The position numbers and the translations under genes are program-made. Of a stretch of 64,000 bases of DNA, positions 14,352 through 36,468 are shown in pieces; position 1 is the first letter of the stretch; each line of letters opens with the position of its first letter. Under the pieces are notes generated by a model, which was not told the DNA's origin, made no database searches, and worked only from the letters and a program-made list of their open reading frames with translations. The stretch covers positions 53,023 to 117,022 of the forward strand of contig JBDRPD010000087.1 in assembly GCA_043827405.1 (NCBI GenBank), given 5' to 3'. The DNA comes from Elusimicrobiota bacterium. GTDB lineage: Bacteria > Elusimicrobiota > Elusimicrobia > UBA1565.

Positions 14352-14415
14352 GCCGCCCGCTTGGCCGGCCGGCACAGCGAGCGCGTCTCCGGCTTCTCGT
14401 CGAGCTTCTTCGGCA

Positions 14416-17204: not shown

Positions 17205-17291
17205 AGGCCTTTATTATATAATTCCTCGTCGATCCTCTGGTGACGACCGCTTGACCGACAGCGACAAAATTCTAATTTTTGCAGTAATAAT

Positions 17292-17807
17292 ATGAATATT
17301 CTTATTATCAGACATGCCCCGGCGGGCAACTCTGAGCAATGGCTGTCGCAGGGAAAGAAGGACTCCCTGCGGCCGCTGACCCCCGAGGGCCGGGAGAAGA
17401 TGCAGAAGACCGCCGCCGGCCTCAAGAGCCAGCTCGACGGGATCGATCTCATCGTCTCCAGCCCTTATGTCCGCTGCCGGCAGACTGTGGAAATCCTGGC
17501 GCTCGCCTTCCCCGAGGCCAAGAAAATCGAGTGGGCGGCCCTGCGCCCGGGCGGCGGCTTTAAAGATATCCCCGCCAAGCTCGCGGCCCTCAATGACGTC
17601 GCGAGCGTCGCCCTAGTCGGCCACGAGCCGACGCTGAGCCTCCTCGGCAGCCATCTGCTCTCCGGCCGGCAGGGAGCGTTCATCCGGCTGAGAAAAGGCG
17701 GCTGCGCGCTGCTGGAAGCCCCCGTGCCCGTCCGCCCGGGACGCGCCGTTCTGCAGTGGCTGCTCCAGTCCAAACAGCTCAGGAAGCTGGGTAAGAAAGC
17801 CGATTGA
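17292..17807 (+). CDS. sixA: Phosphohistidine phosphatase SixA
   Basis: RHA, RPLT..G, SSP..R..QT and VGHEP motifs. Confidence 0.9.
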   Translation: MNILIIRHAPAGNSEQWLSQGKKDSLRPLTPEGREKMQKTAAGLKSQLDGIDLIVSSPYVRCRQTVEILALAFPEAKKIEWAALRPGGGFKDIPAKLAALNDVASVALVGHEPTLSLLGSHLLSGRQGAFIRLRKGGCALLEAPVPVRPGRAVLQWLLQSKQLRKLGKKAD

Positions 17808-18847: not shown

Positions 18848-18877
18848 CCTCCACGCGATAACTATTAGAATCTTTCC

Positions 18878-19750: not shown

Positions 19751-19758
19751 CCGCCGAC

Positions 19759-21237
19759 CTAGTACGCCTCGTCTATCTTCTCCACCACGGTGCGGATGAC
19801 CTTGATGCGGGCCCCGCGCTTGTCGTTGCCTTCGACCAGCGTCCAGGGCGCGCAGTCGGTGCTGGTCTTCTCGATCATATCGCAGGCCGCCGCCTCATAG
19901 GCGTCCCACTTCTTGCGGTTGCGCCAGTCCTCCTCGGTCAGCTTGTACTGCTTATAGGGCTTGAGGTTGCGGTCCTTAAAGCGCTGGAGCTGCTCCTGCG
20001 GCGTGATGGCGATCCAGAACTTGAGGAGGATGATCCCGAAGTCGGTGAGCTGTTCCTCGAAAGCGTTGATCTCGCCGTAAGCGCGCGTCCATTCATCGGG
20101 GGAGCAGAAGCCCTCCAGACGCTCGACGAGCACGCGCCCGTACCAGGAGCGGTCGTAGACCGCCATCCGCCCGGTGCGCGGCAGGTCGCGCCAAAAACGC
20201 CACAGGTAGGGGTGCGCGCGTTCGATCTCGTCCGGCGCCGAAGTCGATATAACGCGGTAGAGCCGCGCATCCATGGCCCGCGTCATGCGCCGGATCGAGC
20301 CGCCCTTGCCGGCCGCATCCGGCCCCTCAAAAAGCAGCAGCACCGACTTCTTGCGGCCGCGCAGGCGCCGCGTCAGGTCCGCGAGCCGGCCCTGCCACCG
20401 GGGAAGCTCCTTGTCGTAATCCTCCCGGCTCAGCGCTTTCGTGAAATCGAGGCGGCGCAGGATATTGACCGGCTTGGGCCTGGGGACCGTCGGTTTGGCG
20501 TCAGGCTGCAGCTTATTGGATTTCAACTTATTGTTGATCGCCTTGATCAGCGCCTTGGCGGCGGTCAAAGCGGTATGCCGGCGGTCCGCCGCCTCGACGA
20601 TCTGCCACGGGACCGCGGCCGTGCCGGTCTTGCGCAGCGTCTGCTCCGATACTTCACGGAAACGGTCGTAGCGCTTGAGGAAGCGCCAGTCCTTGGCGGT
20701 AACGCGCCAGCGCGTTTCAGGATCCTTCTCGAGCTTATTGAAGCGCCGCCGCTGATCCTTCTTGGATAGATGCAGCCACAGCTTGACCACCAGGACTTTC
20801 TCATCGGCCAGCAGCGTCTCGAAATCCTTGATGTGCCCCAGTTCCTTATAGAAGGAAGCCTTCTTCTTGCGGTGAAAGACGCGGTCCACTATCAGGTCGC
20901 TGTACCAGGATCCCAGAAAAACCGCCATTTTCCCCTTGGGCGGGAGCATCCGCCAGTAGCGCCAGAAGCGCGGCCGCTCCTTTTCCTCATCCGAGGGCTC
21001 CCACGGCGCGTGGACCTCAACGCCGCGCGCGTCCATCCACTCGACAAGAAGGTTGACAAGCTGGGTCTTGCCGGCGCCTTCCACTCCGGAGACCAGGAGC
21101 GCCACCGAGAAGTCCGCCTTGGAGAGCTGCTTTTGCGCCTCCAGCAGGGCCAGGCGCAGCTTGGGGACCTCCTTGTCGAAGGTCTCCTTGTCGGTCTTTA
21201 TTCCAAGCTCGGCGATTTCGAACATGATGCCCCCCAT
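19759..21237 (-). CDS. pap: Polyphosphate:AMP phosphotransferase (two-domain PPK2)
   Basis: Two PPK2 domains (GVEGAGK / EGPDAAGKGG, GSWY / DRSWYGRV, EDWRNR). Confidence 0.93.
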   Translation of the reverse strand: MGGIMFEIAELGIKTDKETFDKEVPKLRLALLEAQKQLSKADFSVALLVSGVEGAGKTQLVNLLVEWMDARGVEVHAPWEPSDEEKERPRFWRYWRMLPPKGKMAVFLGSWYSDLIVDRVFHRKKKASFYKELGHIKDFETLLADEKVLVVKLWLHLSKKDQRRRFNKLEKDPETRWRVTAKDWRFLKRYDRFREVSEQTLRKTGTAAVPWQIVEAADRRHTALTAAKALIKAINNKLKSNKLQPDAKPTVPRPKPVNILRRLDFTKALSREDYDKELPRWQGRLADLTRRLRGRKKSVLLLFEGPDAAGKGGSIRRMTRAMDARLYRVISTSAPDEIERAHPYLWRFWRDLPRTGRMAVYDRSWYGRVLVERLEGFCSPDEWTRAYGEINAFEEQLTDFGIILLKFWIAITPQEQLQRFKDRNLKPYKQYKLTEEDWRNRKKWDAYEAAACDMIEKTSTDCAPWTLVEGNDKRGARIKVIRTVVEKIDEAY

Positions 21238-22381: not shown

Positions 22382-23254
22382 ATGACTACACAGGCATTTA
22401 TCACCGCAACCTCTTTTATGGTAGGCCTTGGCGCGACGCTGGCGATCGTGCTGGCCCTGGCCAATAAGCGGCTCCATGTTGAGGAAGACCCGCGCATCGA
22501 CGAAGTGGAAGAGAAGCTTCCCGGCAATAACTGCGGCGCCTGTGGACTGCCGGGCTGCCGGGCCTTCGCCGAAAAAGCCGTGGCCGGCGAGGTAAACCCC
22601 GCCAAGTGCACGGTGAGCCCACCGGAAGAGATCGATGCCATCGCCGCCCTGCTCGGCGTCGAGGCCGAGGCCGAAGAAAAACGCGTCGCGCGGCTGGCCT
22701 GCGCCGGCGGCGACAACGTCGCACGTCAGCGCGTGCACTACCAGGGCATGGCATCCTGCCAGGCCGCCGCGCTGGCCACCGGCGGCGGCAAGGGCTGCGT
22801 CTGGGGCTGTCTCGGCTTCGGCGACTGCGGCGACGTCTGCACCTTCGAAGCCATCAAGATGGACGCCAACGGCCTGCCCATCGTCGACCCCGATAAGTGC
22901 ACGGCCTGCGGCGACTGCGTCGAAATCTGTCCCAAATCCCTGTTTTCCCTGCAGCCGGTGAGCCGCAAGCTCTGGGTCGCCTGCATGAACGGGGCCGCGG
23001 GCGACGCCGCCGAGAACGAATGCGCCGTCGCCTGCACCGCCTGCGGCCTATGCGCCGCCGACGCGGCCGAAGGCCTTATCACAATGCGCAACAACCTCCC
23101 TTTTATCGATTACCGCAAAAACGAACAGGCTTCGGACGACGCCATCGAGCGCTGCCCCACGGGCGCGATCGTATGGCTGGAAAGCCGGACTCGCCGCGTG
23201 AAAGGCGCCAGCGCCAAGCGGATCGTCCGCGAGACCCCTCTGCCGGTCGGATAG
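22382..23254 (+). CDS. rnfB: Rnf complex subunit B (polyferredoxin type)
   Basis: N-terminal TM helix, LPG.NCGACG..GC, GCLGFGDC...C, CTACGDCVEICP, CTACGLC and CPTGAI motifs. Confidence 0.95.
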   Translation: MTTQAFITATSFMVGLGATLAIVLALANKRLHVEEDPRIDEVEEKLPGNNCGACGLPGCRAFAEKAVAGEVNPAKCTVSPPEEIDAIAALLGVEAEAEEKRVARLACAGGDNVARQRVHYQGMASCQAAALATGGGKGCVWGCLGFGDCGDVCTFEAIKMDANGLPIVDPDKCTACGDCVEICPKSLFSLQPVSRKLWVACMNGAAGDAAENECAVACTACGLCAADAAEGLITMRNNLPFIDYRKNEQASDDAIERCPTGAIVWLESRTRRVKGASAKRIVRETPLPVG

Positions 23255-23258
23255 AACC

Positions 23259-26200
23259 ATGATGAGCTTTTTTCGCCGCAAAGAAACCCAGCGTGCCCCC
23301 TTCCCGGGAATACGCACGGCGCAGTCGGGCCGCGCCGCGGCCATAGTATGGACCAAAGACGGCGCCCCATCGGTCGCACGCTTGGCCGGAATCGCGATGA
23401 CCGGCGCGCGCGCCAGCGCCTGGATCGACGGCGAGACGCTCCTCGCCGAATTCGGCATGCTGCGCGAAGCGGCCGCGCGCCACATCCCCTTCGTGCTCCA
23501 CCTGGAGCGCGGCGCGGCCTCCTCCGGCGGCCTGTCCGATTTCCCCGCTTTCGACGACGCGGGCTGCTTTCTCATGCACGCCCGCAGCGCCCAGGAAGCC
23601 GCCGACTTCTCGCTTATCGCGCACCGGATCGCGGAGCGCGCCCTCGTTCCCGGCGTGGTAATCCAGGACGCGCCGCTGACCACCCAGACCACGGCCTCCA
23701 TCCTGCGGCCGGAAGACGATCTGGTCAAAGAGTACCTCGGCTCGGCGGACGACCTGGTGGCGGCGCCCACAGGGGCGCAGAAGATTCTATTCGGCGGCCG
23801 CCGGCGGCGGATTCCCGAGCTGTGGTCCGTGGACCGCCCGCTGGTCGCCCCGTCCTCGTACGGCGAGGACTCTCTTGGTGAGAGCCGGGTCGGCGGGCGC
23901 CTGTTCTTCCTCGACCACGTAGCCGGAATCGCCGACGAGGCGATGCGGCGCTTCGAGGAGCTTACCGGCCGCGGCTACGACCGCGCGGCGGCGGTGCTCA
24001 ACGGCGACGCCGAATATACGATCCTCTGCACGGGAGCCGAGACCGGCACCGCGGAGGCCGCCGCCGCCGACTTCAGCCGCAAGCGCTGCGGCATGGGCCT
24101 GGTCAGCCTGTCGATGCTGCGGCCGTTTCCGGCCGAAGACCTGCGGCGCCTGCTGGCGGGACGCAAGGGCATCCTGGTGTTGGAGAACCGCGACGCCGCC
24201 CTGGCCGAGGACCCGCCGCTGACCCGCGAAACGCGCGCGGCGCTCGGCGCCTCCTGCCCGCCGCTCTACACCGCCGTCCATGGGCTCGGCGGCAGCGCGC
24301 TCCGTCCCGGCGAGCTGTACCCGGCGCTGGAGAACATCCTCGCCCAAGGCAGCCGCCGGCGCAGCGTCTACCTGTCGCTTTCCCAGCCCGCACCGCGGTC
24401 GCCCAAGCAGGAGATCGAACAGCAGGCGGTGCTCGACGCCTATCCCGAAGCCGCCGAGCGCATGCCCGCCCCGGCGCCCGCCGCCGACCTGCTGCCGGCG
24501 GGCGCGTTCACGATCCGTTTATTGGGCGCCGCCCCCGCGCTGCGCGACGCCGCCGGCGAGCGCCTCGGCGCGCTGCTCGCGGAGCTTTTCGAGCACCGCC
24601 TGCGGGCGCACGCCGAGCCGGAAAGCGGCTCCTACCGGATCACGGTGGCGCACGAGGAAATCCGCACCGCCGCCGCTCCCGCCGCGGCCGACATCGCGAT
24701 CATTCTCGACCCCGCGCTGCTGCGCGGCGGCGCGCTCGACGGCGTGCGCAAAAGCGGCTGCGTCATCCTGCAGAGCGTCGCCGACAAGCCCGAGCATGTC
24801 CGCGACGCCCTCCCCCCGCGAGCCCTGCGCACCGCCCGCGACCGGATGCTGCGGCTGTTCGCCGCCGACATCCGCGCGCTGTCGAGCATGCAGAATCCCG
24901 AAGAACTGGCCTACGTACTCCTGGGCTGCGCGACGGCGGCGATGAACTCCCTCGTTTACGCCGCCCCCCCCGAAGCGCGCCTAAAAGAGACCTTGCGCCA
25001 GCCGCTCGTCAAGCGCGGCCACAACGCGCTTATCGAGCTCGGCGAGATCCCCGGCGCCGCATCCGCCCCGGAAACCGGGAAGGAGCCGGAGCTTCCGCTG
25101 CGCCTAAATACGCACCCCTGCGCCGACGTCCCGGTCGCGGACATCCACCGCTTCTATGCGCAAACCGGACATCGTTACGCCGCCGACAGCGGCGGCAACC
25201 CCGTGGACCCCTTCCTCGCTTCGGGCCATGCTCCCGCCGCGACCGGCATCCTGCGCAGCCACAGCGCCGAGCGCGACAGCTACCCGCGTCTCAACCCGGA
25301 GAAGTGCAGCGGCTGCGGCGACTGCTGGCTCGCCTGCCCGGACGCCGCTCTGCCGGCGCGCGTCAACGACTTCTCCGAGATCTGCGAGTGCGCGATCAGC
25401 CAGCTGGAAACGGAAGGCCACAAGATTGAGCACCTGCCGACGACCCTGCGCCAGGTCCAAGCCGAGTACGAGGCGCTGGCAGGAGACCTGCCGGCCGGCC
25501 GCTCGTTCCAGGAGCTGCTGCGCCGCGCGATCGAACGAACGGCAACGGCGTCCCGGCTCGCCGGCGGCGCGCGCGCGGAATTCGAAGCCGAGCTCGCCCT
25601 CTTCCAGGACAAGCTCAAGAATTTCCCGGCCGCGATGACCGAGCCTTTTTACGCCCAAGGCGGCGGCGGGCTGCTGTCGATCGCCGTCGACGCCGATGCC
25701 TGCCGCGGCTGCCTGAGCTGCGTCGCGGTATGCCGGGAAAACGCGCTCGTCCCCGCCAAGCAGACGCCGGCGGCGGACATGGAGCTGCGCCGCAGCTTCG
25801 CTTTTGCCCAGTCGCTGCCGGGCACCGACACGCGGCACATCCTCAGCGTCGATACGGAAGGGGACGCCAAGGGAGCGGCGACGCTGCTCCTTGATGCCCG
25901 AGCCCACGGCGCGACCGTCGGCGGCGGCGGCGGCGAAGCAGGCGCGGGCGAGCGCACGGCGCTGCGGCTCTTCGCGGCGGCGACGACCGCCACGCTCCGG
26001 CAGCGTCTCAACCGGAAGGCGGCCGTGCTCAAAGGGCTTATCGAAAGACTTGAGAACCACATTCGCCTGGGGCTGTCGGTCGATATCCAGGACCCCTCCG
26101 CCCTCGCCGACATCCTGAAGGACCCGGAAGGCGGGGCCGTCACGCTGGCGGAAATATCCGCGCGGCTCGACCGCGAAAACAAGCCGCTCGATAAAGAGTG

Positions 26201-27392
26201 GCTCAAGCGGGTCACCGGCGCGCTCGCGGAGCTCAAATCCTGGCGCGCGCGCATCATAACCGGCGGGACCGCGCGCGCGGATTTCGGCGCCGTGCTCGTC
26301 GGCGCGGGACAGCTCGCCCGCTACCCCTACAACCCCTTCGCTTTCCCCTGCGCCCGGGTCGACAAGAACGGCGGCGTCGACCTCGCGCTCGGGCTGTTCA
26401 CGGGACATATGCGCAAGATGGCCGCGGGGATCAAGGCCTGCCGCATCGCCGAGCTTGAGCTCGACGGAAAATACAAGCCGAAGATCCATGACGAGGTATT
26501 CCGGCGCTTCGACTGGCGCTCCTTCAGCGATGACGAGCGGCGCCTGTGCCCGCCCGTCGCCGTATTCGGCGCGGCGCGCGACCTTTTCGGGCCGGCCTTC
26601 CAAAGCCTCAGCGCCGCGCTGTCCTCCGGGTGCCCGATTAAAATAATCGCCTTCGCCGCTGCGGGGGACCTGCCGGAGAACGCGCTGATCGCGGCGGCGC
26701 ACCCCGAAATCTACGTCCTGCAAAGCGGCATTGCCGATCCCGTGCATCTTATTAACGGCTTCATCGCCGGCATCTCCTCGCGGCGCCCCGCGCTCTTTCA
26801 GGTCTTTGCCGGCGGCGCCGGGGACACCGCCGCCCGCCAGGCGCGCGGGGCGCGGGACGCGCGCGCCCTGCCCTATCTGCGCTACGATCCCGAGCAGGGA
26901 GCGGGCGACGATGAGCGTCTGGATCTCTCCGGCAATCCCGAACTTGAGGCCGACTGGACCACCCGCAAGCTGCACCACATCGACGAAGAAGGCCGTCCGG
27001 CCACCCTGGACATACCTTATACGTTCGCCGACTACGCCGCGACCGAGCCGGCCTTCCGCGACGAGTTCGTCGAGGTTCCGCCGCGCTCCTGGGGCTCCGA
27101 CATGGTCCCGGTCGCCGACTATCTCGAAATGGACGCCGACGAGCGCGCCGAAGCGGTCGCCTTTGTCTGGGCGGTGGACTGGTCCGGCACACTCAAACGT
27201 CTCAAGGTCTCCGCCGCCATACTGCGGACCTGCGAGCGCCGGCTGGTTTTCTGGCGGGGACTCAAACGCCGCAAGCGCCTGGATATCGCGACCGTCGACG
27301 AAAACGTCATCGCGGAGAAGGCCCGCGGCGAGATGGTGGAAAAATTGACGCAGTCCCTCATGGAACTGGCGCAGAGCGGTAGGAGCGGATGA
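23259..27392 (+). CDS. Pyruvate:ferredoxin oxidoreductase (NifJ)-like protein with degenerate catalytic motifs
   Basis: PFOR landmarks AQEAADF..IAH..AE, RPFP, ATG..R, CSGCGDCWLACPD, CRGCLSCVAVC, YPYNPF, YDP..LSGNP and TFAD. YPITP and GDG..N are absent. Confidence 0.8.
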   Translation: MMSFFRRKETQRAPFPGIRTAQSGRAAAIVWTKDGAPSVARLAGIAMTGARASAWIDGETLLAEFGMLREAAARHIPFVLHLERGAASSGGLSDFPAFDDAGCFLMHARSAQEAADFSLIAHRIAERALVPGVVIQDAPLTTQTTASILRPEDDLVKEYLGSADDLVAAPTGAQKILFGGRRRRIPELWSVDRPLVAPSSYGEDSLGESRVGGRLFFLDHVAGIADEAMRRFEELTGRGYDRAAAVLNGDAEYTILCTGAETGTAEAAAADFSRKRCGMGLVSLSMLRPFPAEDLRRLLAGRKGILVLENRDAALAEDPPLTRETRAALGASCPPLYTAVHGLGGSALRPGELYPALENILAQGSRRRSVYLSLSQPAPRSPKQEIEQQAVLDAYPEAAERMPAPAPAADLLPAGAFTIRLLGAAPALRDAAGERLGALLAELFEHRLRAHAEPESGSYRITVAHEEIRTAAAPAAADIAIILDPALLRGGALDGVRKSGCVILQSVADKPEHVRDALPPRALRTARDRMLRLFAADIRALSSMQNPEELAYVLLGCATAAMNSLVYAAPPEARLKETLRQPLVKRGHNALIELGEIPGAASAPETGKEPELPLRLNTHPCADVPVADIHRFYAQTGHRYAADSGGNPVDPFLASGHAPAATGILRSHSAERDSYPRLNPEKCSGCGDCWLACPDAALPARVNDFSEICECAISQLETEGHKIEHLPTTLRQVQAEYEALAGDLPAGRSFQELLRRAIERTATASRLAGGARAEFEAELALFQDKLKNFPAAMTEPFYAQGGGGLLSIAVDADACRGCLSCVAVCRENALVPAKQTPAADMELRRSFAFAQSLPGTDTRHILSVDTEGDAKGAATLLLDARAHGATVGGGGGEAGAGERTALRLFAAATTATLRQRLNRKAAVLKGLIERLENHIRLGLSVDIQDPSALADILKDPEGGAVTLAEISARLDRENKPLDKEWLKRVTGALAELKSWRARIITGGTARADFGAVLVGAGQLARYPYNPFAFPCARVDKNGGVDLALGLFTGHMRKMAAGIKACRIAELELDGKYKPKIHDEVFRRFDWRSFSDDERRLCPPVAVFGAARDLFGPAFQSLSAALSSGCPIKIIAFAAAGDLPENALIAAAHPEIYVLQSGIADPVHLINGFIAGISSRRPALFQVFAGGAGDTAARQARGARDARALPYLRYDPEQGAGDDERLDLSGNPELEADWTTRKLHHIDEEGRPATLDIPYTFADYAATEPAFRDEFVEVPPRSWGSDMVPVADYLEMDADERAEAVAFVWAVDWSGTLKRLKVSAAILRTCERRLVFWRGLKRRKRLDIATVDENVIAEKARGEMVEKLTQSLMELAQSGRSG

Positions 27393-28735
27393 GCCTGCCG
27401 ACCTTTCCGCACGGCATCCATCCCCCGGAGGCCAAGGAGATTTCAAACTCCAAGCCCATCCGGCGCTTCCCCTTCGCCCCCTACCTGGTCATTTTCCTGT
27501 CCCAGCATACGGGCAAGCCCGCCCGCGCCCTGGTCCGCGCCGGGCAGGAGGTGCGCCGCGGCGACAAAATCGCGGAGGCCGACGGCTTCGTCTCCGTCCC
27601 GCATTACGCGCCCGCGACCGGCAGGATCAAGGCCGTAACCCAGGCGATGAATTTCGACGGCAAAATGGCGGATGCCATCATCCTCATCCCCCATCCCGGC
27701 TCGCCGCAGGAGCTCGCGCCGAGCAAGCAGATCGACGTCACGCGGCTCACGCCAGCGCAGATCGTCGCCGGCATCCAGAACATGGGCATGGTGGGCCTCG
27801 GCGGGGCGGCTTTTCCGACGCATGTAAAGCTCACCCCCCCCAAGGGCCGCAAGATCGACACCCTAATCATCAACGGCTGCGAATGCGAGCCCTACCTGAC
27901 CAGCGACCACCGCGTCATGCTTGAGCGCTCGGCTGAGATTATCCTCGGCGCGCGGCTGCTGGCGAAAGCCCTGATGGTCAAGCGCACCATTATCGCCGTC
28001 GAGTCGAACAAGCCGGACGCCATTGAGGTCCTCCGGCGCGCCGCGGCCGGAGCGGAGAAGATCGAGGTCGCCGCGCTGGAAACCAAGTACCCGCAGGGCG
28101 CGGAGAAGATGCTGACCAAGGCGCTGCTGGACCGCGAAATTCCCTCCGGCGGACTGCCGGCCGACATCGGGACCATGGTCTCCAACGTGGCCACCGCCGC
28201 CGAGATCGGCGAGCTCCTGCCCGCCGGCCGCGGCCTCTTTGAGCGGGTCGTAACGATCAGCGGCGAGGGGATAGAGCGGCCCGGCAACTACATCATTCCC
28301 ATCGGCACGCCGCTCGACTTCATCCTCGACACCGTCGGCTTCCGGGGCCGGGCCAAACAGGTCCTCTTCGGCGGGCCGATGATGGGCAAGGCCGTGGTGT
28401 TCCTGGAGACGCCGACGATCAAGGGGCTGACCGGCATCGTGGTCCTCGCCAAAGAGGAGCTTGCCGAGAAGAAACAGATTTACTCCTGCATCCGCTGCGC
28501 GGCCTGCGTCAACGCCTGCCCCATGCACCTCAATCCCACGCGCCTGGGCCTCCTGGCGCGGGTACACGCCTTTGACAAGATGAAGGATGAGTTCCATCTC
28601 CTCGACTGCTTCGAATGCGGCTGCTGCGCCTATGTCTGCCCATCCAATATCCCGCTGGTGCAGCACTTCCGGCTCGCCAAGGGCATCCTGCGCAAGCGCC
28701 AACTGGCGGCGGCCGCGAACGGAGCCGCCAAATGA
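27389..28735 (+). CDS. rnfC: Rnf complex subunit C
   Basis: GIHP, QH.G, GLGGA.FPT..K, ECEPYLTSD, KYPQG.E, GGPMMG, CIRC..C...CP and CFECG.C.YVCP motifs. Confidence 0.97.
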   Translation: MSLPTFPHGIHPPEAKEISNSKPIRRFPFAPYLVIFLSQHTGKPARALVRAGQEVRRGDKIAEADGFVSVPHYAPATGRIKAVTQAMNFDGKMADAIILIPHPGSPQELAPSKQIDVTRLTPAQIVAGIQNMGMVGLGGAAFPTHVKLTPPKGRKIDTLIINGCECEPYLTSDHRVMLERSAEIILGARLLAKALMVKRTIIAVESNKPDAIEVLRRAAAGAEKIEVAALETKYPQGAEKMLTKALLDREIPSGGLPADIGTMVSNVATAAEIGELLPAGRGLFERVVTISGEGIERPGNYIIPIGTPLDFILDTVGFRGRAKQVLFGGPMMGKAVVFLETPTIKGLTGIVVLAKEELAEKKQIYSCIRCAACVNACPMHLNPTRLGLLARVHAFDKMKDEFHLLDCFECGCCAYVCPSNIPLVQHFRLAKGILRKRQLAAAANGAAK

Positions 28736-29757
28736 CCATGCCGGCGAAGTATCTCGACATGGAGCTGCGCATCTCGCCGCACGGCAAGCGCCCCGTCGAC
28801 ACCGTCGCCATTATGCGCACCGTGGTGCTGGCCCTGCTCCCGGTCGCCGCCGCCGCCGTATACATCTTCGGCGCCGGCGCGCTGCTGCTGCTGCTGAGCA
28901 CCGTCGCCTCCTGCCTCGCGGCGGAAGCCGCCGCCTGCCGGGTGAGCGGCCGCGCCTCTTCGCTGCCGGACTACTCCGCAGTCATCACCGGCCTGCTCCT
29001 CGGCCTGACTTTGCCGCCCGGTTTTCCGTTATGGATGGCGGCGGTCGGCGGCTTTGTCTCCATCGGGCTGGGCAAAACCCTGTTCGGCGGCCTAGGCTTC
29101 AATATCTTTAATCCCGCGCTGGTCGGCCGCGCCTTCCTGCAGGCGGCCTTTCCGGTCGCCATCACCAGCTGGTCGCCGGTCCTGTCCGCGGCCCGCTTCC
29201 GGAGCCTGCCGCCGGGGACGCTGACAGTGCCGTTCACGCACCCGACCGCCGACGCCTTCTCCGGCGCCACCCCTCTGGCGGCGATGAAGTTCGACCATGC
29301 GGCGGCGCCGCTGGGCGACCTGCTCTTCGGCGGCGTGCCGGGCTCAATGGGCGAGACCTGCGCCGCGGTTATCCTGCTCTGCGGCCTCTACCTGGCGCTG
29401 CGCCGGATGCTGGACTGGCGCATCCCGGCCGGCATCTTCACCGCGGTCATCGTGACCAGCGCGATGGTGCGCCTGATCGTCCCCTCCGCGCCGACGCCCG
29501 GATTCATGCTGCTCTCGGGAGGCCTCATGCTGGGCGCGGTATTTATGGCGACGGACATGGTCACCTCCCCCGTCACCTCCCGCGGCGTATGGCTCTACGC
29601 CGGCCTCATCGGCATGCTGGTCGTCATCATCCGCGTCTGGGGCGGCCTGCCGGAGGGCGTGATGTACGCCATCCTTATCGGCAACGCCGTGACGCCGGGA
29701 CTCAACCGCATCACCCAGCCCAGAGTTTACGGGACCTCGTGCAGGAGCGTGAAGTGA
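28732..29757 (+). CDS. rnfD: Rnf complex subunit D
   Basis: SPH, FGGLG.NIFNPA, SGATPL (FMN-Thr), GS.GE and FMATD.VTSP motifs; ATG overlaps the rnfC stop (ATGA). Confidence 0.96.
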   Translation: MTMPAKYLDMELRISPHGKRPVDTVAIMRTVVLALLPVAAAAVYIFGAGALLLLLSTVASCLAAEAAACRVSGRASSLPDYSAVITGLLLGLTLPPGFPLWMAAVGGFVSIGLGKTLFGGLGFNIFNPALVGRAFLQAAFPVAITSWSPVLSAARFRSLPPGTLTVPFTHPTADAFSGATPLAAMKFDHAAAPLGDLLFGGVPGSMGETCAAVILLCGLYLALRRMLDWRIPAGIFTAVIVTSAMVRLIVPSAPTPGFMLLSGGLMLGAVFMATDMVTSPVTSRGVWLYAGLIGMLVVIIRVWGGLPEGVMYAILIGNAVTPGLNRITQPRVYGTSCRSVK

Positions 29758-30410
29758 AAGGCAAGAGCGCGGAGATGATCGGCGTCCTCACGGGAGTCGC
29801 GACGATCTGCGGCGTCCTCATCGTCGGCGCCTACCAGACCACTTTACCGCTGATCAACGCCAATAAGGCGGCCTACCTCAAAGCGGCCGTCTTCAAGGTC
29901 ATCCCGGGCGCGGTGAAGACCGCCGCCTTCACTGTGGACGCCGACGGCAGCTTGACCCCGGCGGGCGAAGGGCAGCCGGCCGCGGCCCATGCGGTTTATG
30001 ACGAGAACGGCGGCCTCCTCGGCATCGCCCTGGAGGCCAGCGGCCAGGGCTTCCAGGAAATCATCCGGGTGCTCTACGGCTATTCGCCGGCGCAGCGCGC
30101 GGTCGTCGGCTTCATGGTGCTGGAAAGCAAAGAGACGCCGGGGCTCGGCGACAAGATCGAGAAAGACCCCGCCTTCCTGGCGAATTTCAACGCCCTCGAC
30201 GTCGCCCTGGACGCCGGCGGCGACCAGCTCGCGCACCCGATCACGGTGGTAAAGCCCGGCAAGAAGACCTCGGCCTGGGAGATCGATGCGATCTCCGGGG
30301 CGACGATCTCCTCTAAAGCCATCGGCCGCCTGCTCGATGAAAGCACCCGCGTGAAGATTCCCCTGGTGCACCGGAACCTGCAGCGGCTTAAGGAAGGCGC
30401 CGGCGGATGA
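29754..30410 (+). CDS. rnfG: Rnf complex subunit G
   Basis: N-terminal TM, ETPGLG, DAISGATISS (FMN-Thr); GTG overlaps the rnfD stop. Confidence 0.93.
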   Translation: MKGKSAEMIGVLTGVATICGVLIVGAYQTTLPLINANKAAYLKAAVFKVIPGAVKTAAFTVDADGSLTPAGEGQPAAAHAVYDENGGLLGIALEASGQGFQEIIRVLYGYSPAQRAVVGFMVLESKETPGLGDKIEKDPAFLANFNALDVALDAGGDQLAHPITVVKPGKKTSAWEIDAISGATISSKAIGRLLDESTRVKIPLVHRNLQRLKEGAGG

Positions 30411-31015
30411 GCGAAAAGAACGCGGACGTATTCCTTAAGAAGCTGTGGGAGGAAAACCCCGTCTTCGTGCATCTCCTCGGCATGTGCCCGACGCTGGCGG
30501 TGTCCAACTCAGTGATCAACGCGCTGGCGATGGGGCTGGCCACGCTGTTCGTGCTCGTAATGTCGAGCATGCTGATCTCCATGCTGCGCCGGCTGATCCC
30601 CAAGCAGGTGCGCATCGCCACCTTCATCATGATCATCGCCACCTTTGTCACCCTGGCCGAGTACGTCATCCAGGCGGTCAGCCTCGAGATCCACAAGAGC
30701 CTCGGCGCCTTCATCTCGCTGATCGTCGTCAACTGCATCATTCTGGGGCGCGCCGAGTCCTTCGCCTACAAAAAACCGGTCATCCCGTCGATCCTCGACG
30801 CCCTCGGCACCGGCATCGGCTTCACTCTGGCCATCCTGGCCATGGGCTCGATCCGCGAAATCCTCGGCTCGGGCTCTTTCGCCGGCGTCCCGCTGTTCGG
30901 GCCGTCGTTTGAGCCCTGGGTCGTCATGATCCTGCCGGGCGGCGGCTTCTTCGTCCTCGGCCTGCTGCTGCTGGCCGTCAATAAAATCAACCTGCTCCGG
31001 GGGAAGAAGCAATGA
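30407..31015 (+). CDS. rnfE: Rnf complex subunit E
   Basis: ENP....LGMCP.LAV, LIVVNCIILGRAE, REILG and LP.GGF motifs. Confidence 0.96.
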   Translation: MSEKNADVFLKKLWEENPVFVHLLGMCPTLAVSNSVINALAMGLATLFVLVMSSMLISMLRRLIPKQVRIATFIMIIATFVTLAEYVIQAVSLEIHKSLGAFISLIVVNCIILGRAESFAYKKPVIPSILDALGTGIGFTLAILAMGSIREILGSGSFAGVPLFGPSFEPWVVMILPGGGFFVLGLLLLAVNKINLLRGKKQ

Positions 31016-31599
31016 ACAGCGATCCCCTGTGGCTGATCTTCGTCAACGCCTGCTTCGTCAATAACTTCGTGCTGGCCTACTTCCTCGGCATCTGCCCCTT
31101 CCTCGGCGTATCCGGGAAGCTCGAAACAGCGAGCCGCATGGGCATCGCCGTCACCTTCGTGATGCTGGTCAGCTCGACCTGCGCCTTCGGCATCCACACC
31201 TTCCTGGTGCGCATCGACGCGCAGTATCTGCAGCTGATCGCCTATATCGCCGTGATCGCCTCCTCGGTGCAGCTGGTCGAAATGTTCATCAAGAAGTTCA
31301 GCCCGGCGCTGTTCCGGGCGCTCGGAATTTTCCTGCCGCTGATCACGACCAACTGCGCTATCCTCGGCCTGGCGCTCTTCCAGACCAGCCGCGCCTACAG
31401 TCTGCCGCAGTCGCTGGCCTTCGCGGTCGGCGCCGGCGCCGGCTTCACCCTCGCCCTGGTGATCATGGCGGGGATACGCGAGGAGCTCGAGCTCGCGGAC
31501 GTCCCCGACGTGGTCCGCGGCGCCGCGATCACGCTGATGATCGCGGGCGTGCTGTCTTTGGCGTTCATGGGCTTCGCCGGACTCGGAGGCGGAGCATGA
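31012..31599 (+). CDS. rnfA: Rnf complex subunit A
   Basis: NNFVL..FLGICPF.GVS, LGIFLPLITTNCAILG and AFMGF motifs. Confidence 0.96.
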   Translation: MNSDPLWLIFVNACFVNNFVLAYFLGICPFLGVSGKLETASRMGIAVTFVMLVSSTCAFGIHTFLVRIDAQYLQLIAYIAVIASSVQLVEMFIKKFSPALFRALGIFLPLITTNCAILGLALFQTSRAYSLPQSLAFAVGAGAGFTLALVIMAGIREELELADVPDVVRGAAITLMIAGVLSLAFMGFAGLGGGA

Positions 31600-31764: not shown

Positions 31765-33681
31765 ATGAAAAAACCACGCAAGATCAGGAAAGAAGAACAC
31801 ATCGTTGAGATTGTCAGCGACGCCGGCGAGGGCGCGCAAAAGGCCGCCGTGGCTTTCGCCCAGACCTGCGCCCGGATGGGCAACGGCCTGTGGACGGTCG
31901 AGATCATCCCCTCGGAGATCCAGCCGCCGCCGCATACCACCGGCAGCGCCAGCGGCAACCGCATCCGCCTGTCCGAAAAGCCGCTGGTAACCAATGCCGG
32001 CGACAAGGCGAATTTGGTCCTGGCCTTCAACGAGATGGCTTTCCTATCACGCATCGAAGCCAACTCGGTGGCCGACGACGTCATCCTGGTCATCGACAGC
32101 ATGTGGGCCGAGCACGACGACCCGGAAATCCGCAAGAACTACGCCCAGATCACCGAGGACGTGCGCCAGAAGGGCGGCACGGTCCTGGAGATCCCGTTCG
32201 AGAAAGAGACCCTAAAGATCGTGGAAGACCCGCGGCGCGGCAAGAACATGTTCGCCTACGGCTTCCTCTGCGCCCTCTACTGCCGCGACAAGGAAGTGAT
32301 GCTCGAGGTGGTAAAGACGACCTTCGGCAAAAAATCGCAAAAAGTGATCGACACCAACGTCGCCCTGGCCGACAAGGGCTACCAGTACGGAGAGGAGCAC
32401 CTGGAGTACCAGTTCGAGATCCTCGCCAAGCCCTCCGACAAGCAAATGGTGGCGATGAACGGCAACCTCGCGATCGCGCTGGGCGCGATCGCCGCCGGCT
32501 ACGAGATGTGCTCGATGTATCCGATCACGCCGGCGACCTCGGCCTCGCACTTCCTGTCCGACATCTTCGAGGACCTGGGCGGCTTCGTGCACCAGGCCGA
32601 AGACGAGATCGCCGCCATCGGCGTGGCCATCGGCGCCTCTTATGCCGGCAAGGCGGCCATCACCATCACCTCGGGCCCGGGCATGGCGCTCAAAACCGAG
32701 TTCCAGGGCCTGGCCGTCATGACCGAAACGCCGCTGGTCATCGTCGACGTACAGCGCGGCGGACCGAGCACCGGCCTGCCGACAAAGATCGAGCAGGGCG
32801 ATCTCTTGTCCTCGATCTTCGGCACCCCGGGAGACGCCCCCAAGGTGGTCTTGGCCGCGAGCAACATCGAGGACTGCTTCTACATCCTGGCAACGGCGCG
32901 CAAGATCTCCGAAGAGTTTCGGACTCTGGTTATCGTCCTGACCGACGCCAACCTGGCCACCGGCCAGCAGATCTTCCAGCGGCCGGAGCTCTCCGAGGCG
33001 ACCCTGCCGCCGCCGATGGACCTCAACCCCGTCCCCAAGGGGACTTTGCCTTTCGACTGGGACGAAAAGACCGGCCTGTCGCGGCGGCTGATCCCGGGCC
33101 AGGCCAACGGCATGTCGGTGATCACCACGCTCAACCACGCAAAGGACGGCAAGGCCTGCTACGACTACGAGAGCAACCAGCACGGCCACCGCATGCGCAG
33201 CCGCAAGCTGGCCACCCTGCAGAAGACGCTCAAGACCCCGCCGATCTACGGACCGGACGAGGGCGACCTGCTGATCGTCGGCTGGGGCAGCACGCGCGGC
33301 GCGATCGAGGAGGCGGTGGACCGGGCGCAGGCGGAAGGCTACCACGTGTCTTCGATGAACATCCAGTTCCTCAACCCGCTGCCGTCGGGGCTCAAGCAGG
33401 CCTTCTCGCGCTTCGATAAGGTGATGACGATCGAGCTCAACTACAGCGACGACGCGGACGATCCGGAGATCACCGCGGAAAACCGCCGCTACAGCCAGCT
33501 CTGCCTGCTGCTGCGCGCGAATACGCTCATGGATATCGACACCTGGTCCCGCGTACCGGGCCGGCCCTTCATGCCCTTTGAGCTGACGGAAGTGATTCGA
33601 CATGAGCTGGGCGAACCGAGGAAGCCCGGTGAGGAACGCAAGAAGAAACCCAAGCAGACCGCGGTACGAGGTGCGAAATGA
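31765..33681 (+). CDS. korA: 2-oxoacid:ferredoxin oxidoreductase alpha subunit (gamma-alpha fusion, KorA-like)
   Basis: YPITPA, QAEDEIAA, TSGPG..LK.E, QRGGPSTGLPTK.EQ.D and GWGST.G motifs. Confidence 0.9.
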   Translation: MKKPRKIRKEEHIVEIVSDAGEGAQKAAVAFAQTCARMGNGLWTVEIIPSEIQPPPHTTGSASGNRIRLSEKPLVTNAGDKANLVLAFNEMAFLSRIEANSVADDVILVIDSMWAEHDDPEIRKNYAQITEDVRQKGGTVLEIPFEKETLKIVEDPRRGKNMFAYGFLCALYCRDKEVMLEVVKTTFGKKSQKVIDTNVALADKGYQYGEEHLEYQFEILAKPSDKQMVAMNGNLAIALGAIAAGYEMCSMYPITPATSASHFLSDIFEDLGGFVHQAEDEIAAIGVAIGASYAGKAAITITSGPGMALKTEFQGLAVMTETPLVIVDVQRGGPSTGLPTKIEQGDLLSSIFGTPGDAPKVVLAASNIEDCFYILATARKISEEFRTLVIVLTDANLATGQQIFQRPELSEATLPPPMDLNPVPKGTLPFDWDEKTGLSRRLIPGQANGMSVITTLNHAKDGKACYDYESNQHGHRMRSRKLATLQKTLKTPPIYGPDEGDLLIVGWGSTRGAIEEAVDRAQAEGYHVSSMNIQFLNPLPSGLKQAFSRFDKVMTIELNYSDDADDPEITAENRRYSQLCLLLRANTLMDIDTWSRVPGRPFMPFELTEVIRHELGEPRKPGEERKKKPKQTAVRGAK

Positions 33682-34646
33682 CCCCCCTGAATATCGAAGA
33701 ACTGGTAGAGAAAGACTGCGCCACCAAGAACTACAAGCTCGAGGACTACGAGGCGCCTTATCCGGCACGCTGGTGCAAAGGCTGCGGCGACTTCGGCGTT
33801 CTGACGGCCATCCAGAAAGTGCTGCGCGACGCCAATATGGCTCCGGAAAACGTGGTCTGCTGCTCGGGCATCGGCTGCTCCAGCCGCCTGCCCCACTACC
33901 TGAAGACCTACGGCTTCCACGGCATCCACGGCCGGGCGCTGACGCTGTCGACCGGCGTATCGCTGGCCCGGCCGGACCTGAAAGTCATCACCATCATGGG
34001 CGACGGCGACTGCTTCTCGATCGGCGGCAACCACTGGCTGCACGCGATCCGCTACAACGTGGATCTCACGGTCCTGGTGCTCGACAACGAGGTCTACGCC
34101 CTGACCAAGAAGCAGGCATCGCCCACGACGCCCCAAGGCGGGATAACCAATACGACGCCGCGCGGCTCGTATCTCAAGCCGCTCAATCCCATCAGCACCA
34201 TGATGGGAATCGCCAATGTCTCATTTTTGGCGCAGACGGCGACGTGGTTTCCGACGCACCTGGAAGCGACCATCCAGAAGGCCTGGAAGCACAAAGGCCT
34301 GTCCTTCGTGCGCGTGCTGCAGCGCTGCCCGGCGTACATGCCAGCCGCCTTCGGCAACGGCGGCCTGCAGTATCCGGCCGCCTTCCTCAAAAACGACAAC
34401 GGCATACCGTTTGACGCCGACGACGCGGCCGCCGCCAAGGTGCAGGAGCATGACCAGCACGACCTCAACATGGCCCTGCGCGTCGCGGCCGTCACCGATC
34501 CGGCGCCCATGGGACTCATCTACTGGAACCCCGATCTGCCGACGTACAACGAAACGCGGCTGTCGCGCGTGCGCAAGCATGACCGCAAGACGCTGCTGGC
34601 CCGGCTCGACGGGGAGCTGGATAAATACGCCGTAAAACGCAAGTAG
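33678..34646 (+). CDS. korB: 2-oxoacid:ferredoxin oxidoreductase beta subunit (KorB-like)
   Basis: WC.GCGD, SGIGCSSR, HGR, GDGD..SIGGNH, DNEVY.LTK.Q.SPT and Q.CP motifs. Confidence 0.92.
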   Translation: MTPLNIEELVEKDCATKNYKLEDYEAPYPARWCKGCGDFGVLTAIQKVLRDANMAPENVVCCSGIGCSSRLPHYLKTYGFHGIHGRALTLSTGVSLARPDLKVITIMGDGDCFSIGGNHWLHAIRYNVDLTVLVLDNEVYALTKKQASPTTPQGGITNTTPRGSYLKPLNPISTMMGIANVSFLAQTATWFPTHLEATIQKAWKHKGLSFVRVLQRCPAYMPAAFGNGGLQYPAAFLKNDNGIPFDADDAAAAKVQEHDQHDLNMALRVAAVTDPAPMGLIYWNPDLPTYNETRLSRVRKHDRKTLLARLDGELDKYAVKRK

Positions 34647-34653
34647 GCCCAAA

Positions 34654-36468
34654 ATGAAACAGCAGGAAGTCACCCAACAAATCGAAACGTGCTCAGAGCA
34701 CGCGCAGGCGGACCTGATGGAACGCCTGCATACGGCGCACCGCGAGATCGACGACCTTCTGACGCTCGAAGAGCATCACCGCACCGGACATCAGAGCGAG
34801 AGGCTGCAGACCTCGATGCGCGGCTTCGGCGACGGAGTCCTCGACACCCGGGCCCTCTCCGCGGTCCTCGACCAAGGCGACGAGAGCCGGCGCATGAACA
34901 AGGACCGCCACCAGCGCATCCTCAAGGTGCGCGACGAGCTCAAGGCCCTCATCGAGAGCTACGAGAAGAGTCCGCCCAAGCCGGCGACCATGCCGCTGGG
35001 CGCCGATGCCGACGCGATCCTCAAGCGCGCAGAGGACCATCTCAACAAGATGGCCAAGGCCTTCCGCCTGATACGGATCGTGCGCCTCGAGGTCCGCGCC
35101 CAGTACCAGAAGGAGCTCCACGATCCGTTCTTCAAGCGCTTCAACTGGGAGCATCTGAGCAACGACGAAGTCGCCCTCTGCCCGCCTTTCCTCGTGACGG
35201 ACGAGCCGGCGGGAGAGCTCGACATCGCCAAGGTGCTGCACCTCATCTCCAGCGGCCGCCCGGTAAAGCTGCTGCTGCTGCGCACCGAACTGCGCAAGCG
35301 GCCGGGGACCACCGGCCGCTCGTCGGCGCTGCAATGCGTAATGGATCTGGAAATGCTGCCGGTCGCCATGCGCGGCGTCTACTTCATCCAGACCACGACC
35401 GCCCGCCAGGACCTCGACGCCCTGCTGGAGGCGGGGCTTCGCTCACCCCGGCCGGCGCTGTTCTCGCTGTTCGGCGCCGACGCCGCGCACGAGAACGGCT
35501 TTCGCACCCGCGCCGAGCGGGCGCTGTCCTCAAGGGCCCATCCGCATATCGTATACGACCCCGACCGCTCGCCCCAGTTCGTCGCCTGCTTTGACCTCTC
35601 GGGCAACCCGGCCATGGACCGCAACTGGACCAACGCTCAGCTCGAACACCGCACGGACAAGGGCGACGCCGAGACCCTGGAACGGGAGTTCACCTTCGCC
35701 GACTTCGCGGTGCAGGAAGCCGCGTTTTCGGGCGAGTTCTCGGTGCTGCCCGCCGACCTGGAAGGCCGGGAGCCCGTCACGCTGGCGGAATACATCTCCC
35801 TGCCCGCCGACCAGCGCAGCGGCAAGCTGCCCTTCGTCTATTCGCTCAACGAAAAGCAGCGCCTCACCAAGCTCGTGCCTTCGCGCGCCATGATCGTACA
35901 GACCGCCGAGCGGCTCAAGCTGTGGCGGGCGCTGCGCGAAATGGCGGGCGTCGAAAACCCCTTCGTCAAGGAAGCCGAGAAGCGGGTCAAGACCCGCCTC
36001 ACCGACGAGAAGGAAGCCTCGCTAAAGGAGCTGCAGGGCCGCATGGAGACGCAGATCGCGGCCCGGCAGAAGGAGGCGGTCACGACGGCGATGCGCAACC
36101 TCGCCCGCCAGTTGACCGGCCTGGAGGCGCTCGCGCCGGCGCCGGAGACGGCGCCCGCGGCGTCGGCGACCACTGAGGCCGCGCCGGCCGCCGCCGCGCC
36201 GGCCAAGCCGACGGGAACCAGCGACCTGCCGTGGATCCAAAGCAAGAAGTGCACGACCTGCGACGAATGCACCAATATCAATAAAAAGATATTCGCCTAT
36301 AACGAGAACAAGCAGGCCATCATCGCCGACCCCAAGGGCGGACCTTTCCGGGATATCGTCAAGGCGGCCGAGAAGTGCTCGGCGCGCATCATCCATCCCG
36401 GCAGGCCGCAGGACCCGAGCGAGAAGAACCTCGATAAGTGGGTTAAGAAGGCCGAAGCGTTTCAGTAA
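34654..36468 (+). CDS. PFOR C-terminal-like protein with a terminal ferredoxin domain
   Basis: Shares F.W...S.DE..LCPP, YDP..DLSGNP and TFAD blocks with the 1377-aa protein; Ala/Pro linker; CTTCDEC...AAEKC ferredoxin. Confidence 0.8.
   Translation: MKQQEVTQQIETCSEHAQADLMERLHTAHREIDDLLTLEEHHRTGHQSERLQTSMRGFGDGVLDTRALSAVLDQGDESRRMNKDRHQRILKVRDELKALIESYEKSPPKPATMPLGADADAILKRAEDHLNKMAKAFRLIRIVRLEVRAQYQKELHDPFFKRFNWEHLSNDEVALCPPFLVTDEPAGELDIAKVLHLISSGRPVKLLLLRTELRKRPGTTGRSSALQCVMDLEMLPVAMRGVYFIQTTTARQDLDALLEAGLRSPRPALFSLFGADAAHENGFRTRAERALSSRAHPHIVYDPDRSPQFVACFDLSGNPAMDRNWTNAQLEHRTDKGDAETLEREFTFADFAVQEAAFSGEFSVLPADLEGREPVTLAEYISLPADQRSGKLPFVYSLNEKQRLTKLVPSRAMIVQTAERLKLWRALREMAGVENPFVKEAEKRVKTRLTDEKEASLKELQGRMETQIAARQKEAVTTAMRNLARQLTGLEALAPAPETAPAASATTEAAPAAAAPAKPTGTSDLPWIQSKKCTTCDECTNINKKIFAYNENKQAIIADPKGGPFRDIVKAAEKCSARIIHPGRPQDPSEKNLDKWVKKAEAFQ

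What the first reader, a model, noticed from the sequence alone, without database searches (positions are those of the whole stretch)
23259..27392. Full-length PFOR homolog that looks catalytically dead but keeps its electron wire
Seen: the N-terminal YPITP/catalytic-Glu segment is missing. The proximal-cluster motif (normally ACxGCGE) reads GEAGAGE, and the TPP/Mg motif (normally GGDG...DT.VYSNTGGQ) reads FGAARD...IIAFAAAGD. Both ferredoxin motifs survive (CSGCGDCWLACP near 25305, CRGCLSCVAVC near 25701), separated by a long helical insert, and the 4.1-kb frame is uninterrupted. Inference: a pseudo-enzyme acting as scaffold or electron conduit between RnfB and KorAB. The alternative is recent decay of a once-active enzyme.
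Basis: partly seen in the sequence, partly recalled or inferred. Interest (0 to 1): 0.78.

Follow-up and report, generated by a model that had tools for sequence, protein, structure and literature searches.

The report
Dead PFOR built into Rnf operon
This gene encodes a conserved relative of pyruvate:ferredoxin oxidoreductase that has lost its thiamine, substrate and third-cluster motifs but keeps the eight cysteines of two iron-sulfur sites, and it sits inside an Rnf ion-pump operon with a second dead copy carrying a tethered ferredoxin, so the pair likely forms a private electron wire from the neighbouring 2-oxoacid enzyme KorAB to the pump.

Summary
Observation confirmed; recent decay is not supported. 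The 1377-aa ORF is a catalytically stripped member of a widespread 'long PFOR' family (~1650-1700 aa) that sits between rnfB and rnfC. A ~42-residue in-frame deletion removes YPITP and the catalytic Glu. The GDG/NTGGQ motifs, all four proximal-cluster Cys and the family's C-terminal ferredoxin are gone, while all eight domain-V Cys remain, as in 14 of 14 dead orthologues covering them. Orthologues at 39-64% identity share the deletion. Strain variants give pN/pS 0.31 (p=0.002). Across 55 loci that ferredoxin sits on the long protein or on the korB follower, nearly never on both. Best model (0.5): a two-part non-catalytic wire KorAB → tethered Fd → domain V → RnfB; no binding or electron transfer is shown. 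The intact gene between rnfB and rnfC is noted in print (PMC4287430). My searches found no dead form in print. This scan reported the same operon type before on other genomes.

The parts
22382..23254 (+). rnfB, long polyferredoxin type with N-terminal membrane anchor
   Evidence: TIGR01944 71.8 bits over cut-off 68.7; PRK07118-type models score highest; FeS and Fer4 domains
23259..27392 (+). Dead long PFOR (LONG), 1377 aa: domains I-II-III-IV-V-VI plus C-terminal helix; no TPP, substrate or proximal-cluster motifs, CoA-domain signature mostly lost, no C-terminal ferredoxin
   Evidence: starts 4 nt after the rnfB stop and overlaps the rnfC start (ATGA)
23298..23381 (+). Site of the ~42-residue in-frame deletion (YPITP and catalytic Glu), shared with P0002, P0003 and the G011 orthologue
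   Evidence: pairwise alignments with intact P0004; G011 translation
25305..25340 (+). Ferredoxin motif 1 (C683, C686, C689, C693)
25701..25733 (+). Ferredoxin motif 2 (C815, C818, C821, C825), after a ~110-residue helical insert
25932..25952 (+). Dead proximal-cluster motif GEAGAGE (family: ACxGCGE)
26565..26669 (+). Dead TPP/Mg motifs (FGAARD; IIAFAAAGD with the NTGGQ loop deleted)
27389..31599 (+). rnfC (27389-28735), rnfD (probable start 28732-29757), rnfG (probable start 29754-30410), rnfE (30407-31015), rnfA (31012-31599), joined by overlapping stop/start codons
   Evidence: TIGR01945, 01946, 01948 over cut-off; 01943 over cut-off; 01947 79.9 bits under cut-off 102 but with an FMN_bind domain; junctions
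31765..34646 (+). korA (31765-33681) and korB (33678-34646): two-subunit 2-oxoacid:ferredoxin oxidoreductase with intact YPITP, catalytic Glu, GDGD and four Cys; no domain V
   Evidence: TIGR03710 513 bits and TIGR02177 238 bits (KorB under cut-off 262); best PDB hits M. marinus OGOR 6n2n and Sulfolobus OFOR 5b46; motifs
34654..36468 (+). Second pseudo-PFOR (SHORT), 604 aa: helical N-terminus, dead domain VI, long helix, disordered Ala/Pro linker (492-522), single-cluster ferredoxin (CTTCDEC at 36250; fourth Cys in EKCS at 36370)
   Evidence: 32% identity to LONG 1039-1349; conserved family; AlphaFold pLDDT 91.6; Foldseek hits PFOR 6cin and D. africanus ferredoxin I 1fxr, TM 0.85

Best explanation
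The gene encodes a selected, catalytically stripped PFOR paralogue that keeps two ferredoxin-type cysteine motifs and likely serves as an iron-sulfur relay subunit feeding RnfB, working with the second pseudo-PFOR after korB, whose tethered ferredoxin would carry electrons from KorAB. Shown: loss of the TPP, substrate and proximal-cluster motifs and of most CoA-domain invariants; retention of all eight domain-V cysteines; purifying selection; a fixed place between rnfB and rnfC; a korB-linked paralogue that carries the ferredoxin when the long copy lacks it. Inferred: both clusters are assembled; the proteins form one complex with Rnf and KorAB; electrons run 2-oxoacid → KorAB cluster → tethered ferredoxin → domain-V clusters → RnfB → NAD+, pumping ions. 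The path should be reversible, and the oxidative direction is assumed, not tested. Evolutionarily it is an Rnf-coupled long PFOR whose electron-transfer parts were kept and divided between two genes after catalysis became dispensable; this genome has a separate canonical PFOR.
For: 14 of 14 dead copies that cover domain V keep all 8 Cys, and 13 of 13 that cover domain VI have no proximal Cys (the group was defined by the losses, so only the retention is informative). Dead copies keep 0.76, 0.78 and 0.65 of intact-invariant residues in domain IV and the two Fd motifs, against 0.23 in domain III, 0.35 in VI and 0.41 in I. Strain X2: 15 synonymous and 13 non-synonymous differences, pN/pS 0.31, p=0.002, no indels listed, no Cys changed. 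73 of 80 genome loci of the family carry an rnf gene; 5 of the other 7 are contigs under 5 kb. G011 shows the same order, read from separate contigs. korA-korB-SHORT-rnfB-dead LONG-rnfC, or the part of it that the contig covers, recurs without an intact copy in the locus in 7 of 80 metagenome loci, plus 3 cut early. A SHORT-family gene follows korB in 60 of 64 loci. In 55 loci with both genes, the follower lacks the ferredoxin in 49 (all with an intact or semi-intact long copy) and has it in 6 (5 with dead-only long copies, 1 semi-intact). Two-subunit OFORs lack domain V (PMC13768988 section 3). The AlphaFold model has pLDDT 84.6 and keeps PFOR domain folds.
Against: No experiment and no expression data exist. 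LONG evolves faster than its neighbours against G011 (dN/dS 0.20-0.46 versus 0.08-0.18; dS saturated), so constraint is relaxed. In some loci a dead copy coexists with an intact long PFOR that has its own domain V and ferredoxin (L080, L082; N-terminal or partial dead copies in L036, L078), where a second wire looks redundant and a structural role fits as well. The ferredoxin complementarity is biased: the metagenome loci were found with ferredoxin patterns, 54 of the 80 genome loci are Gemmatimonadota, and L119 has a ferredoxin on both genes. A SHORT homologue also occurs beside gltD-like and nuo-like genes (L155), and two intact long PFORs lack rnf within 10 kb (L029, L034), so the parts are not exclusive to Rnf. 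The model's overall domain packing differs from one-chain PFORs (rmsd 27-30 Å), so cluster distances could not be judged.
Confidence: 0.5

Rival explanations
1. Structural scaffold: LONG holds or assembles an Rnf-KorAB supercomplex through its dimer surfaces and helical inserts; the clusters stabilise the fold or sense redox but are off the main electron path, and the tethered ferredoxin hands electrons straight to RnfB.
For: Family-specific surface motifs are kept in dead copies (the PTxAQ..FG..RRR.P stretch, domain II 0.62, tail 0.75). 130 kDa of fold is maintained, far more than two clusters need. Dead and intact copies coexist in L080 and L082.
Against: All eight domain-V Cys are kept in 14 of 14 copies while the proximal cluster, which could equally be structural, is lost in 13 of 13.
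Confidence: 0.22
2. Regulatory or half-site pseudo-subunit: LONG pairs with an active OFOR protomer (KorAB, the canonical PFOR, or an intact paralogue) in the usual OFOR dimer geometry and tunes it or lends it domain V.
For: All OFORs dimerise (PMC13768988 section 3). Domains I, II and VI keep their folds. KorAB lacks domain V.
Against: The gene stays between rnfB and rnfC and is translationally coupled to rnfC, whereas the korB-linked gene is SHORT. In known PFOR structures domain V lies next to its own protomer's proximal cluster (established knowledge).
Confidence: 0.12
3. Co-regulated but physically independent soluble two-cluster electron carrier or buffer in the ferredoxin pool.
For: OFORs show weak partner specificity in vitro (PMC13768988 passage). 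Operon linkage alone does not show binding.
Against: Does not explain why the large scaffold is kept, nor the one-ferredoxin-per-operon pattern.
Confidence: 0.09
4. A new TPP-independent activity or ligand site has evolved in the old active-site cleft.
For: Long survival under selection.
Against: The former catalytic columns hold no common replacement residues across dead copies.
Confidence: 0.04
5. Recent decay of a once-active enzyme.
For: Higher dN than neighbouring genes. Partial motif loss arose several times among otherwise intact copies.
Against: The deletion is shared with orthologues at 39-64% identity. The frame is open in the orthologue pieces despite dS above 1.4. pN/pS is 0.31. 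GC3 is 0.86, like its neighbours at 0.81-0.91.
Confidence: 0.03

Closest known systems
One-subunit PFOR (Desulfovibrio africanus 1B0P, Moorella thermoacetica 6CIN; TIGR02176)
   Same: Domain order I-II-III-IV-V-VI, folds and two domain-V cysteine motifs.
   Different: No YPITP, catalytic Glu, GDG/NTGGQ motif or proximal Cys; large helical inserts; about 18-19% structural identity; 63 bits against a cut-off of 911.
Magnetococcus marinus PFOR Mmc1_1741/1742 (active, three clusters; PMC12337175)
   Same: By eye, its published sequence shares the signature motifs of the intact long family (HAGHDD, VQNQD, YGSEKKG, STYPYNP, DTQVYSNTGGQ), which suggests that intact members are pyruvate enzymes.
   Different: It is split in two, catalytically active, and lacks the helical inserts and the C-terminal ferredoxin. 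Compared by eye only, not aligned.
Intact PFOR gene between rnfB2 and rnfC2 of the Solemya velum symbiont rnfBCDGEA operon (PMC4287430)
   Same: Same slot in the same operon type; the authors proposed pyruvate as electron donor for Rnf (passage).
   Different: Described as an ordinary PFOR; no mention of a dead copy, a korB-linked paralogue or a tethered ferredoxin. I did not check its sequence.
Rnf complex (RnfABCDGE)
   Same: All six subunits are present.
   Different: Characterised complexes take electrons from free ferredoxin or flavodoxin (established knowledge); PFOR-derived accessory subunits are not described in the papers searched.
PorD/KorD delta subunit of four-subunit OFORs
   Same: Supplies the two domain-V clusters as a separate chain (PMC12337175 passage).
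   Different: PorD is about 10 kDa and binds its own enzyme; here the two clusters ride on a 1377-aa dead enzyme tied to rnf genes.

Membership tests
Active PFOR / OFOR | YPITP substrate motif and catalytic Glu in domain I | tested here: not met
   ~42-residue in-frame deletion
Active PFOR / OFOR | GDG...N TPP/Mg motif in domain VI | tested here: not met
   FGAARD; NTGGQ loop absent; no TPP_enzyme_C hit
Active PFOR / OFOR | Four Cys for the proximal [4Fe-4S] cluster | tested here: not met
   all four replaced
Active PFOR / OFOR | CoA-binding domain III signature | tested here: not met
   21 of 73 intact-invariant residues kept; Gly-rich loop and YGSEKKG lost; the fold itself is kept
Active PFOR / OFOR | Eight Cys for medial and distal clusters (domain V) | tested here: met
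   C683/686/689/693 and C815/818/821/825
Active PFOR / OFOR | 2-oxoacid:ferredoxin activity, TPP and Fe content | not testable with these tools
   needs purified protein
OFOR structural superfamily | PYR, TK-C, gamma, ferredoxin and PP domain folds | tested here: met
   model versus 9bt4_A Z 29.1, rmsd 2.4 over 329; versus 5exe_C Z 18.5, rmsd 2.5 over 215
Rnf-operon long PFOR family (unnamed, ~1650-1700 aa) | Family inserts and place between rnfB and rnfC | tested here: met
   906 bits to the intact-family HMM, against 346 for the genome's canonical PFOR; gene order
Rnf-operon long PFOR family (unnamed, ~1650-1700 aa) | C-terminal tethered single-cluster ferredoxin | tested here: not met
   protein ends after the tail helix; the domain is on the 604-aa paralogue
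Rnf subunit | Stable part of the Rnf complex | not testable with these tools
   only gene adjacency and translational coupling are seen
Pseudogene | Stops, frameshifts, dN/dS near 1 | tested here: not met

The most novel reading that the evidence does not exclude
A hard-wired 2-oxoacid:NAD+ ion-pumping respirasome: KorAB, two PFOR-derived pseudo-enzymes and Rnf form one complex. A swinging tethered ferredoxin and the domain-V clusters of a dead PFOR carry electrons from TPP to RnfB without the free ferredoxin pool, and loss of catalysis with retention of the wire happened repeatedly in this family.
Probability: 0.35. Interest if true: 0.85.

Novelty: new variant of a known kind. Interest (0 to 1): 0.64.

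Why it matters
Rnf is usually pictured drawing on a shared pool of free ferredoxin. If this operon encodes a dedicated wire, 2-oxoacid oxidation (or, in reverse, reductive carboxylation) is coupled directly to the membrane gradient in many bacterial phyla; the long family has at least 548 loci among GTDB species genomes. I found no pseudo-enzyme of the OFOR superfamily in the papers searched. Genes like this are annotated as pyruvate-ferredoxin oxidoreductase (P0003, P0011, P0021), so metabolic reconstructions credit them with an activity they very likely lack. The natural series intact → semi-dead → dead plus partner makes the electron path testable by comparison.

Tried and rejected
Complex prediction of LONG 868-1377 with SHORT 1-488 gave no verdict (score 0.01 in both runs, controls not folded); it is not used either way. 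A first genome scan with the single protein found no relative (73 pattern matches, 0 confirmed). The deeper profile search of protein representatives was unavailable, so distant dead copies are under-sampled. Public runs: no RNA holder listed. Class-wide search with SHORT: 3 of 301 genomes matched, own included; class of G301 with a dead copy: 5 of 201, two with apparently dead copies (L197, L198). So the operon is patchy; not found in those searched is not absence. Single or multiple origin of the dead copies is unresolved: the best tree has two groups, but one clade is not rejected (p-AU 0.28) and long branches are involved; the canonical PFOR fell out of both trees, so they are unrooted. 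My early idea that intact-only operons lack a korB follower was wrong. Promoter and terminator scans gave nothing useful (1 promoter-like site against 1.8 expected). dN/dS against G011 is saturated and only a rough bound. The TPP pocket could not be inspected because model coordinates are not returned. Literature searches with no description of a dead form: 0 papers; 0 papers. Passages of PMC3534657, PMC5317091 and PMC13147460 had nothing relevant. The Biegel 2011 Rnf review is not held, and subscription journals are mostly not searched.
Full report
Observation. The ORF 23259-27392 is open for 1377 codons. It matches one-subunit PFORs weakly (E 5e-14 to 1b0p over residues 39-705) and scores 63 bits on TIGR02176 against a cut-off of 911. 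Pfam finds POR_N, PFOR_II, POR and Fer4 but no TPP domain. In an alignment of 110 sequences they fall in the columns of ACxGCGE, GGDG and DTQVYSNTGGQ of intact relatives. The third and fourth proximal-cluster cysteines are lost too. The N-terminal loss is an internal in-frame deletion of about 42 residues.

Context. The gene lies in a one-strand block: rnfB - LONG - rnfC-D-G-E-A - korA - korB - SHORT. It has a 4-nt gap to rnfB and an ATGA overlap with rnfC. KorAB keeps its catalytic motifs and is closest to M. marinus OGOR and Sulfolobus OFOR among solved structures; its substrate is not established. SHORT (604 aa) is a second pseudo-PFOR: 32% identical to LONG 1039-1349, and a member of a conserved family of about 600 aa (18 full-length hits at 40-53% among 57). 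It is predicted as a helical region, a dead domain VI, a disordered linker (492-522) and a single-cluster ferredoxin fold (pLDDT 91.6; 1fxr TM 0.85). The genome (98% complete) has a canonical PFOR on C66 (1778 bits), a four-subunit POR on C83 and a second KorAB on C53. A profile search of its ORFs found no intact long-family copy.

The family. The closest relatives are not D. africanus-type enzymes but ~1650-1700-aa proteins with helical inserts and a C-terminal ferredoxin on an Ala/Pro linker. 73 of these 80 have an rnf gene in the locus; most are Gemmatimonadota (54), with Acidobacteriota (10), Pseudomonadota (7), Planctomycetota (2) and others. Most keep every catalytic motif. M. marinus PFOR, which is active on pyruvate (PMC12337175, passages and supplement part 1 of 2), shares the family's signature motifs by eye but lacks the inserts and the extra ferredoxin. 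An intact PFOR gene between rnfB and rnfC was noted for the Solemya velum symbiont (PMC4287430, passage). In Riftia symbionts a 'PFOR-like ferredoxin' fell in expression together with a dimeric korAB under sulfide limitation (PMC11636981, passages and one supplement row; one supplement is a scan and could not be searched); I did not check whether it is a SHORT homologue. PMC6315080 (passages, supplement passages) notes korAB, PFOR and rnf genes in tubeworm-symbiont clusters.

Three states. (i) Intact. (ii) Semi-dead: TPP motifs lost or altered, all Fe-S cysteines kept (P0005, P0007, P0009, L047, L119); four of these five nest among intact rows at three places in the tree. (iii) Dead: 16 rows, of which 14 cover domain V and all keep 8 of 8 Cys, and 13 cover domain VI and keep none of the proximal Cys (the group was defined by the losses). 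Retention of intact-invariant residues in dead copies is 0.76-0.78 around ferredoxin motif 1, 0.65 around motif 2, 0.75 in the tail, 0.62 in domain II, 0.41 in I, 0.35 in VI and 0.23 in the CoA domain. The window's copy groups with P0002 (64%) and P0003 (39%) (100/99). Its weakly supported sister is semi-dead L119 (95/65), which has the same gene order as the window. Whether all dead copies share one origin is open (p-AU 0.28; unrooted; 42 rows, L078 and the canonical PFOR dropped).

Decay test. P0002, P0003 and the G011 orthologue share the N-terminal deletion. G011, of the same family, shows the same gene order across five short contigs. Against G011, LONG has dN 0.50-0.65 with saturated dS 1.4-2.6, a ratio of 0.20-0.46 compared with 0.08-0.18 for the seven neighbours tested: constrained, but less so. 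A strain from another study covers about 3.3 kb of the gene in low-depth contigs (depth 3-6, so some differences may be errors). It shows 28 differences, 15 synonymous, pN/pS 0.31, binomial p=0.002, no indels listed and no cysteine changed. Three further differences seen only in X3/X4 were left out of that count. GC3 is 0.86, like the operon. Recent decay is therefore rejected.

Division of labour. A lead from earlier scan notes was that a cofactor-less domain-VI copy also follows korB in intact operons. I tested it: a SHORT-family ORF follows korB in 60 of 64 loci (66 with korB, less the window's own and one ending at korB), usually as a ~335-aa form that was not in the profile. In the 55 loci holding both a follower and a long gene, 49 followers lack the ferredoxin, and all 49 have an intact or semi-intact long copy beside them (ferredoxin seen on it in 43; four are cut by the contig end, one is frameshifted, one was missed by the pattern). 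Six followers carry it, five beside dead-only long copies and one (L119) beside a semi-dead copy that also has one. The window and L176/L187 fit the second pattern. The pattern is biased by how loci were found and by kinship, but it suggests one tethered ferredoxin serving the whole unit.

Structure. AlphaFold on residues 30-1229 with an 81-row alignment gives pLDDT 84.6 and pTM 0.82. Individual domains match OFOR subunits at 2.3-2.5 Å, while the whole-chain fit to one-subunit PFORs is poor (27-30 Å). Domain packing is therefore either different or mis-predicted, and cluster distances were not assessed.

Mechanism. Two-subunit OFORs have only the proximal cluster (PMC13768988, passages and section 3). 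The operon supplies the missing relay in two non-catalytic chains: a mobile ferredoxin on the korB-linked protein and two fixed clusters on the rnfB/rnfC-linked protein. If the ferredoxin docked directly on RnfB, domain V would be free to decay like the proximal site; it never does in the copies seen, which is the main reason to put it on the path. This is inference (0.5); a scaffold role (0.22) and a regulatory half-site role (0.12) remain. No physical contact is shown.

Novelty. The parts are known kinds (Rnf, KorAB, PFOR folds), and the intact gene's position is in print. Nine literature searches found no description of dead copies or of the tethered-ferredoxin partner; most subscription journals and the Biegel 2011 review were out of reach. 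This scan's own earlier notes describe the same operon type in at least eight other genomes (unchecked AI notes, not independent support); a sequence look-up found no note on this protein. My reading was recorded before that look-up. What this window adds is a rearranged order (rnf first, korAB-SHORT last), strain-level evidence of selection, and the intact → semi-dead → dead series. Verdict: a real, selected pseudo-enzyme; new variant of a known kind; interest 0.64.

Noticed in passing
window 36469-36876 (-): Hemerythrin-domain gene (PF01814) converging on SHORT with no gap; an earlier scan note lists a hemerythrin gene in a related operon, so an oxygen link is possible.
   Followed up: no
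L155:55-9530: A SHORT-family protein with ferredoxin is followed by a gltD-like flavoprotein and nuoA/B/C/D/I/H/J-like genes (names from sequence appearance), suggesting the adaptor can also serve a complex-I-like membrane enzyme.
   Followed up: no
L036, L078, L080, L082, L181: Loci with more than one long-family paralogue: korA-korB-SHORT(no Fd)-intact long-rnfB-dead long-rnfC, complete in L080 and L082, partial in the others.
   Followed up: partly
P0005, P0007, P0009, L047, L094, L119: Semi-dead long PFORs: TPP motifs altered, all Fe-S cysteines and the C-terminal ferredoxin kept; several separate origins.
   Followed up: partly
L029, L034, L112 (G028): Intact long PFORs with no rnf or kor genes detected in the fetched flanks; L029 and L112 also lack the C-terminal ferredoxin.
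   Followed up: no
P0036-P0056: A ~494-aa SHORT subfamily without ferredoxin, one named from an Opitutaceae genome; context not seen.
   Followed up: no
window 13111-21237: Polyphosphate-related cluster upstream: PPK2 (19759-21237, PF03976) and, by sequence appearance only (recalled), PPK1 (15057-17204), a SixA-like phosphatase, a CHAD protein and a CYTH protein.
   Followed up: no
G000:C33:9741-11063 and C66:61622-62806: Further RnfC-like proteins below the family cut-off elsewhere in the genome.
   Followed up: no
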